A stretch of 64,000 nucleotides of DNA. Origin: Eledone cirrhosa (lineage: Eukaryota). Below are positions 21,416 through 21,981 of this stretch, in pieces. The DNA lies in NCBI GenBank assembly GCA_964016885.1, contig OZ024740.1:235352001-235416000 (forward strand). Direction: 5' to 3'. The translations under genes and the position numbers were made by a program. The number at the start of each line of letters is the position of its first letter. Position 1 is the first letter of the stretch. Below the pieces are notes generated by a model. It searched no databases and was not told where the DNA came from. It was given only the letters and a program-made list of their open reading frames with translations.

Positions 21416-21981
21416 TAAAGGTAACTATAGTAGGTAAAGTCAATTTTTTAAAATTTATTTTGAAACTTTTTCATTATTTGCTAAACCTTGTTTATATATG
21501 TTCTGGCTCGTTAATTTATTAACCTGCCATTGAACCACATTGGCATTTGGTTGGACAATACATGCGTCCCTTAGCGCCTTATGCGTGAAGGAACACATAT
21601 CCTATTATTACTACTCTCCGCTATTGTTGAGAGACAAATTGGGTTGTTCCGACTGCTGCTAGTGATAGTTGCGGCCGGTTTGACCTACCTCCCTCTGCCT
21701 CTATCTTTACTTCGGCCCTTGAAAAAATTGATTCCACTTCATTCACTCTCATCTCAGGAACAGTTTTGGATAGCGCTAGTTCGTAATTTAAATTCAAGAA
21801 TTTTATATTCTTCGAATGAAAAGAACCTTCTGACGAGAATCTTTCTTTGCAACGAAGGCCGTATGGTCTCCGTTTATTTTTGGGATTCGAAACCGATCGG
21901 TAAAGGTAACTATAGTAGGTAAAGTCAATTTTTTAAAATTTATTTTGAAACTTTTTCATTATTTGCTAAACCTTGTTTATA
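21416..21981 (+). mobile_element. Retrozyme-like or Penelope-pLTR-like element: 485-nt unit plus 81-bp identical terminal direct repeat
   Basis: 21416-21496 is identical to 21901-21981. The repeat boundary coincides with the hammerhead cleavage site. Both flanks are (TA)n. Confidence 0.8.
21825..21907 (+). ncRNA. Canonical type I hammerhead ribozyme, predicted cleavage after GUA (21902/21903)
   Basis: ACCTT-CTGACGA-GAATC...GATTC-GAAA-CCG-AT-CGG-TA-AAGGT. Helix I ACCTT/AAGGT, helix II GAATC/GATTC, helix III ACCG/CGGT. All core residues present. Confidence 0.88.

What the first reader, a model, noticed from the sequence alone, without database searches (positions are those of the whole stretch)
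21416..21981. Retrozyme-like element that begins exactly at its own hammerhead cleavage site and overshoots one full 485-nt turn
Seen: a non-repetitive island inside (TA)n has identical 81-bp ends with a period of 485. It holds a complete type I hammerhead (ACCTT-CTGACGA-GAATC...GATTC-GAAA-CCGATCGG-TA/AAGGT). The first non-microsatellite bases of the element (AAGGT, 21418) are exactly the bases 3' of the predicted cut (21903). The element therefore reads cut site, full monomer, cut site, plus 79 nt. Known: metazoan non-LTR retrozymes and Penelope-like elements carry type I hammerheads with palindromic helix III, and retrozyme monomers can circularise. Inference: this is a cDNA copy of a self-cleaved RNA, made either by reading through a circle's ligation junction, by an end-to-end template jump, or from a partly cleaved multimer. 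It would be a young, non-coding, ribozyme-defined mobile RNA family mobilised in trans. I cannot tell whether the family is already catalogued.
Basis: partly seen in the sequence, partly recalled or inferred. Interest (0 to 1): 0.92.

Follow-up and report, generated by a model that had tools for sequence, protein, structure and literature searches.

The report
Self-cutting RNA circle copied into microsatellites
This is one copy of a young, non-coding mobile repeat with a predicted self-cutting hammerhead ribozyme, found as over a thousand units inside TA microsatellites, and the mutations its copies share indicate that its tandem arrays are likely made by copying one RNA circle round and round, probably with the enzyme of an active Penelope-type transposon.

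Summary
The headline reading is wrong for the family. It has at least 1,196 units, in (TA)n, in arrays of up to 10 units per arm. 5' ends are scattered; only 7 loci genome-wide start at the cut. The fixed ends are 3' ends: 108 of 113 arms stop at one of two TA-like sites, about 76 and 185 nt after the cut. In 25 of 27 head-to-head two-arm insertions one arm uses each site. Rare mutations give a pedigree: two neighbouring monomers of one array, split at the hammerhead, are each fixed in every unit of other arrays. Another mutation is in 11 of 11 units of both arms of one locus and nowhere else. So one monomer was likely copied repeatedly from both target ends. A young Neptune-like Penelope family shows the same two-site, two-arm anatomy (12 of 12) but no sequence likeness. 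Verdict: a new non-LTR retrozyme family, with unusually direct genomic evidence for rolling-circle retrotransposition. Cleavage, circle and partner are untested.

The parts
21418..21902 (+). One full 485-nt monomer, cut site to cut site, 38% G+C, no conserved ORF
   Evidence: 36 other identical units at 10 other loci among the rows shown; the 113-aa frame from 21581 has no Pfam hit and its ATG is absent from most other haplotypes (164A>G)
21903..21981 (+). Partial second unit, from the cut site to the family's commonest fixed 3' end (site 1); inferred first-copied segment
21825..21907 (+). Predicted type I hammerhead ribozyme; cut after A21902; long loop II insertion
   Evidence: sequence; active fold 2.1 kcal/mol above the minimum-energy fold; covariation
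21892..21901 (+). Palindromic helix III, weak alone (-0.9 kcal/mol), strong as a two-copy duplex (-16.6); predicted to cut as a dimer
   Evidence: the palindrome is kept through compensatory changes in sister families
21492..21499 (+). Site 1 (unit 75-82, TA-like; its second copy is this insertion's 3' end at 21977-21984); inferred priming site
   Evidence: 72 of 113 arm ends; the TA run starts 75 nt after the cut in 44 cases; predicted unpaired
21500..21535 (+). Hairpin just 3' of site 1, shared with sister families; candidate reverse-transcriptase binding signal
   Evidence: fold; alignment; 2,138 matches to the sister-family form against 2 in the control
21600..21611 (+). Site 2 (unit 183-194); second fixed 3' end, used by the opposite arm in two-arm insertions; inferred priming site
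   Evidence: 36 of 113 arm ends; 25 of 27 two-arm loci pair it with site 1
21625..21639 (+). Short motif 3' of site 2 shared with sister families
   Evidence: alignment
20979..21417 (.). Left (TA)n target microsatellite
21978..22078 (.). Right (TA)n target microsatellite

Best explanation
This is a copy of a multi-copy, non-coding hammerhead repeat (a non-LTR retrozyme) whose RNA is predicted to cut itself into 485-nt monomers that likely circularise and are likely reverse-transcribed round and round by a Penelope-type enzyme into TA microsatellites. Steps: (1) an array is transcribed (inferred). (2) Neighbouring hammerheads pair through the palindromic helix III and release monomers (predicted; the monomer boundary is bracketed by the pedigree to unit 461-61, which contains the cut). 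(3) The monomer is ligated into a circle (inferred from exact junctions and from published retrozymes). (4) A Penelope RT-endonuclease cuts both strands of (TA)n. One DNA end primes at site 1 and the other at site 2, both TA-like, on the same RNA (ends shown; priming inferred). (5) Each end copies 0 to 10 turns, and the cDNAs join head to head or to the other target end, often through a few shared bases (structures shown). The window copy likely began at site 1, copied 79 nt, crossed the junction, made one more turn and joined the target at the TA of the cut site.
For: 1,196 exact junction copies. 108 of 113 arm 3' ends in 80 loci lie at two sites, and 5' ends are scattered. 25 of 27 head-to-head loci with both ends at a site pair site 1 with site 2 (binomial p 3e-6 against 0.5). 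Arrays are internally uniform (0-0.8% pairwise, 24 arrays) although haplotypes differ by up to 11%, and 8 private variants are fixed in all units. Pedigree: in one arm of L035 a single monomer carries 61C+98C and its neighbour carries 460C. 61C+98C is fixed in L042 (4/4, 3/3) and L043 (2/2, 1/1), and 460C in L053 (4/4). Genome-wide the markers occur in only 8 and 5 units. 345T occurs in 11 units, all at one locus and in both arms. 155 of 156 internal junctions in the 40 best loci are exact, with no indel. A young Neptune-like family (RT + GIY-YIG; 99.4-99.7% identical) also ends in TA runs, and 12 of 12 loci with both ends visible use one of each of its two sites; its first site lies 73-76 nt after its own hammerhead-like cut in 12 of 15 ends.
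Against: No RNA evidence: cleavage, circle and expression are untested. The pedigree rests on one source array and three daughters. One of the 8 units with 61C (L199) is an independent recurrence on another haplotype, so single variants can recur. 5 private variants sit at intermediate frequency within arrays, which pure rolling-circle copying does not predict; conversion or unit duplication after insertion may act as well. The candidate Penelope shows no sequence likeness to the monomer (best E 1.6), and only some Penelope families were sampled (150 of 10,597 GIY-YIG candidates scored). In the anole Penelope, priming sites were not homologous to the cut DNA and ribozyme cleavage was dispensable in vitro (PMC11167929). 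Both samples of loci are biased towards intact junctions. Assembly polishing could add uniformity to tandem units.
Confidence: 0.7

Rival explanations
1. One linear monomer stays bound to the RT, which jumps from its 5' end back to its own 3' end again and again; no covalent circle.
For: Explains uniform arrays, fixed private variants and the monomer pedigree equally well. 5' ends at the cut are about threefold above the control average (7 loci over about 4 nt against 15 over 28 nt; Poisson p 0.02 without the window copy). Penelope RTs are telomerase relatives (PMC8557442 abstract).
Against: 155 of 156 junctions are exact with no added or lost base; end-to-end jumps often add bases (recalled for R2). 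Run-off at the cut is rare (7 loci) and matched by another TA-microhomology site. Published animal retrozymes accumulate as circles (PMC7229834).
Confidence: 0.13
2. Templates are long uncleaved multimer transcripts, and arrays are made uniform afterwards by unequal crossover or gene conversion (the satellite route raised in the 2026 preprint).
For: 5 intermediate-frequency private variants. Unprocessed RNA was the main substrate of the anole Penelope in vitro (PMC11167929). 8 of 9 frog retrozyme dimers did not cleave in vitro (10.64898/2026.07.22.740005).
Against: L042, L043 and L053 each fix the variants of one L035 monomer and not its neighbour's, although 460C and 61C lie only 86 nt apart across the cut. 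345T is fixed in both oppositely oriented arms of a young insertion with no source elsewhere. 28 single-unit private variants persist. Array ends are precise.
Confidence: 0.1
3. It is the terminal repeat (pLTR) of a Penelope element, left as 5'-truncated fragments.
For: Same anatomy as Penelope ends: hammerhead, two alternative 3' ends (the 'tail'), inverted arm, TA target (PMC3846280 passages). Frog retrozymes resemble pLTRs (2026 preprint).
Against: None of 79 fetched family loci or 20 sister-family loci has a Penelope ORF joined to it; two family loci (L101, L102) and two sister loci (L182, L183) have separate GIY-YIG fragments in the flank. Upstream of each unit lies another unit, up to 10 in a row. 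No likeness to the pLTR of the most active family.
Confidence: 0.05
4. One reading: the family's 5' end is defined by ribozyme cleavage.
For: True of this copy and 6 other loci. For this single copy, run-off at a cleaved 5' end remains possible.
Against: 4 of 113 sampled arm 5' ends lie at unit 483-2, the rest are spread over all ten bins; the TA at the cut offers microhomology to the target.
Confidence: 0.02

Closest known systems
Animal non-LTR retrozymes (Cervera and de la Pena 2020, PMC7229834; Li et al. 2026 preprint, 10.64898/2026.07.22.740005)
   Same: Non-coding tandem repeats with one type I hammerhead per unit, under 50% G+C, weak palindromic helix III, living beside Penelope elements; both papers propose Penelope mobilisation and the first proposes a circular template.
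   Different: 485 nt is above the 170-400 nt of the 2020 paper but within the 51-972 bp of the preprint. The sections I read describe no (TA)n targeting, no fixed pair of internal 3' ends, no head-to-head two-arm arrays and no monomer pedigree. Supplements were not read.
Endonuclease-bearing Penelope-like elements, Neptune clade (PMC8557442, PMC3846280)
   Same: Microsatellite insertion bias, 5' truncation, inverted 5' arm, a 'tail' at only one end, hammerhead near the 3' end.
   Different: No ORF; the unit repeats up to 10 times per arm; the tail is about 110 nt, not 30-40.
Poseidon PAc of the anole, in vitro (Frangieh et al. 2024, PMC11167929)
   Same: Cuts and extends both strands of AT-rich DNA; reverse transcription starts at two internal RNA sites that define the tail; protein predicted to be a dimer.
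   Different: There the start sites are adjacent and not homologous to the target, and ribozyme cleavage was not needed. Here both sites are TA-like, about 110 nt apart, used one per end, and the monomer boundary brackets the cut.

Membership tests
non-LTR retrozyme | Type I hammerhead motif in each repeat unit | tested here: met
   Motif and covariation; 1,167 intact-core matches, sister families included. Rfam models give no hit.
non-LTR retrozyme | Short units in tandem, many loci | tested here: met
   Arrays up to 10.1 units per arm and 12 per locus; 485 nt exceeds the 170-400 range of PMC7229834 but fits the 2026 preprint's range
non-LTR retrozyme | Non-coding, G+C under 50% | tested here: met
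   38% G+C; the 113-aa frame has no Pfam hit and no conserved start
non-LTR retrozyme | No LTR, primer-binding site or polypurine tract; target-site duplication longer than 4 bp when present | tested here: inconclusive
   The apparent terminal repeat is a partial tandem unit; duplications cannot be read inside (TA)n; no tRNA-primer search was run
non-LTR retrozyme | Self-cleavage of the transcript | not testable with these tools
   Folding only
non-LTR retrozyme | Expressed as circular monomer RNA | not testable with these tools
   Only indirect genomic evidence; public runs gave contigs of unrecorded kind
autonomous Penelope-like element (pLTR) | Repeat joined to an RT + GIY-YIG ORF | tested here: not met
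   0 of 79 family loci and 0 of 20 sister loci; flanks fetched were 1-4 kb
autonomous Penelope-like element (pLTR) | Inverted 5' arm with a tail at one end only | tested here: met
   25 of 27 two-arm loci, as in 12 of 12 loci of the active Penelope: it works like a Penelope insertion without being one

The most novel reading that the evidence does not exclude
A Penelope RT-endonuclease dimer primes both ends of a cut (TA)n at two dedicated sites on one ribozyme-made RNA circle and runs two rolling-circle reverse transcriptions at once, writing palindromic satellite arrays in a single event. The genome records the pedigree monomer by monomer and holds the matching active enzyme, so the retrozyme cycle and the origin of Penelope inverted arms and tails could both be rebuilt in vitro.
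Probability: 0.5. Interest if true: 0.8.

Novelty: new member of a known kind. Interest (0 to 1): 0.64.

Why it matters
That animal retrozymes spread through circular RNA copied by Penelope RTs is a published hypothesis (PMC7229834 discussion; 2026 preprint), and how Penelope's tandem and inverted structures form is named as open (PMC8557442). This family gives genomic evidence that single monomers bounded near the ribozyme cut are the templates of whole arrays, and that the two ends of an insertion use two different fixed RNA sites. It also offers a defined substrate, two mapped start sites, a defined target and a candidate enzyme, which makes the cycle directly testable. It suggests a one-step route to tandem satellite DNA.

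Tried and rejected
Rfam scans found no hammerhead in the window or in four related loci. A 5'-end pile-up at the cut was tested and not found. A hidden protein was rejected. The search for a Penelope carrying the shared hairpin found only sister retrozymes in 20 loci picked from the first 100 of 2,138 matches. The hammerhead array beside the Penelope ORF in L131 looked like a pLTR but is a separate sister retrozyme in that element's TA tail. A T>C excess among single-unit changes as an RT signature is unconvincing: 14 T>C against 7 A>G, with 175 T and 125 A in the unit. No RNA holder listed; four runs laid were contigs of unrecorded kind and show presence only, two of them with a single low-depth contig each. 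One Pfam accession tried was not in the library. Earlier scan notes: none. Repbase and Dfam are not available, so prior cataloguing is unchecked. Paper searches for octopus + hammerhead ribozyme and retrozyme + cephalopod showed no paper on such a family; the octopod guess is recalled from a flanking repeat and was not verified.

Full report
Observation. The island at 21416-21981 is as described: an 81-bp perfect direct repeat with period 485 inside (TA)n, a full type I hammerhead at 21825-21907 and a predicted cut after A21902. Rfam does not detect it. The catalytic fold is 2.1 kcal/mol above the minimum-energy fold. Helix III is worth -0.9 kcal/mol alone and -16.6 as a two-copy duplex, the arrangement that PMC4209133 (passages read) links to dimeric cleavage. 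Across 14 hammerheads from this and sister families, all three helices show two-sided changes. In the predicted circle the hammerhead is mostly not formed, and the fold z-score is -2.8 against 100 shuffles.

Family. The genome (G000, 3.0 Gb) holds 1,196 exact copies of the cut junction. I mapped 80 loci: the 40 best-scoring of 1,874 candidates, window included, and 40 of the first 47 by position on contig C1 (two more were already in the first set and five were not fetched). Hits under 85% identity or 38 nt were dropped, leaving 113 arms. The window's monomer is identical to 36 other listed units at 10 loci. At least three sister families of about 460-525 nt share the hammerhead layout, the hairpin and, where seen, the two end sites.

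Ends. 72 arms end at site 1 (unit about 75-82), 36 at site 2 (about 183-196) and 5 elsewhere; 5' ends fall in all ten 50-nt bins. Of 48 single-arm loci, 40 end at site 1. Of 31 head-to-head loci, 27 have both ends at a site, and 25 of these use one of each (p 3e-6). Arm junctions overlap by 0-9 bases in 27 of 30 loci. Genome-wide, 7 loci join a TA run directly to the cut site. A control stretch of 28 nt has about 15 such loci by my reading of the rows, 4 of them at one TA-like position. The window copy's start at the cut is therefore real but uncommon, and is either run-off at a cleaved end or a microhomology join. Its 79-nt extra piece is the usual fixed 3' end.

Template. Arrays are uniform inside (0-0.8% in 24 arrays) while haplotypes differ by up to 11%. 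Among 41 loci with three or more units at a column, private variants were fixed in 8 cases, single in 28 and intermediate in 5. In one arm of L035, the last full monomer alone carries 61C and 98C, and the monomer before it alone carries 460C. L042 and L043 carry 61C+98C in every unit and not 460C; L053 carries 460C in every unit and not 61C or 98C. Genome-wide the 61C marker is in 8 units (these three loci plus L199, an independent case on another haplotype without 98C) and the 460C marker in 5. The simplest reading is that two adjacent monomers left L035 separately, divided between positions 461 and 61, an 86-nt interval that contains the cut, and each was multiplied. The reverse direction, L035 built from several different molecules, fits poorly with the uniformity of other arrays. 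345T is in 11 units, all in L041 and in both arms, so both arms likely came from one molecule. 155 of 156 internal junctions in the first set are exact, which favours a ligated circle over repeated jumps but does not exclude them; that set was chosen by identity.

Partner. No family locus is joined to a Penelope ORF. The genome has many GIY-YIG elements. One family with RT, a CX4CXXC linker and GIY-YIG (Neptune-like by the linker description in PMC8557442, no tree built) is young: 22 of 131 scored hits tie on a 300-aa RT query, and 19 other copies are 99.4-99.7% identical to L230 over 1.5 kb. In 20 fetched loci its ends run into TA at two sites after its hammerhead-like motif, about 75 and 141 nt on; all 12 loci with both ends visible use one of each. 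The first distance equals that of this family (mode 75), though it is longer in a sister family, so the match may be chance. The two elements share helix I and the outer helix III bases but no alignable sequence. Other Penelope families here also end in TA. The partnership is an inference from anatomy and timing.

Mechanism. Shown: family, target, two fixed 3' ends used one per arm, scattered 5' ends, uniform arrays, and the variant pedigree. Inferred: transcription, dimeric cleavage, ligation, priming by TA pairing, rolling-circle copying and the identity of the enzyme. Overall confidence 0.7.

Literature seen. 10.64898/2026.07.22.740005: parts 1-3 of 5, abstract to discussion. PMC7229834: parts 2-4 of 6, results and discussion. 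PMC11167929: parts 1-2 of 4, main text. PMC8557442, PMC3846280 and PMC4209133: passages only. Others: search listings only. No supplement was read; the 2020 paper's supplementary model figure and species lists may bear on novelty. In these eight searches I saw no report of this family or of a monomer pedigree, but Repbase and Dfam could not be checked.

Verdict. A new family of a known kind (non-LTR retrozyme). Its value lies in the mechanism evidence, not in this copy's start at the cut site. Interest 0.64.

Noticed in passing
L146 2770-3735, L157, L158, L131 6010-6919, L179-L198: Several sister hammerhead families (about 460-525 nt units, roughly 65% alike between two of them) with the same TA target, hairpin and end sites; the helix III palindrome is kept by compensatory changes
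   Followed up: partly
L229-L248, L130: Young, high-copy Neptune-like Penelope family (34,970 first-look candidates); its hammerhead-like core reads TTGAAAA instead of CTGANGA, and in L230 its coding region is split into frames of 218, 231 and 768 aa (intron or frameshift not resolved)
   Followed up: partly
G000:C25:3616158, C25:3661253, C22:23059477, C1:380080530: Very short inverted site-2 arms of 10-25 nt, suggesting that some apparent single-arm copies had a second priming event
   Followed up: no
L158 1440-2760: A sister-family array followed by two identical 5'-truncated pieces separated by TA runs, apparently a local duplication
   Followed up: no
window 22080-23520 (- strand): LINE-type RT fragment (RVT_1, E 7.7e-25) with an 8-nt repeat tail, next to but separate from the element
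   Followed up: partly
window 20646-20877: 112-bp tandem dimer of a repeat that I recall as a common octopod short repeat; not verified
   Followed up: no
L133, L137, L141, L140: Other Penelope families with different hammerhead-like motifs; L141 is a 3.3-kb palindrome at 99.7% identity
   Followed up: partly
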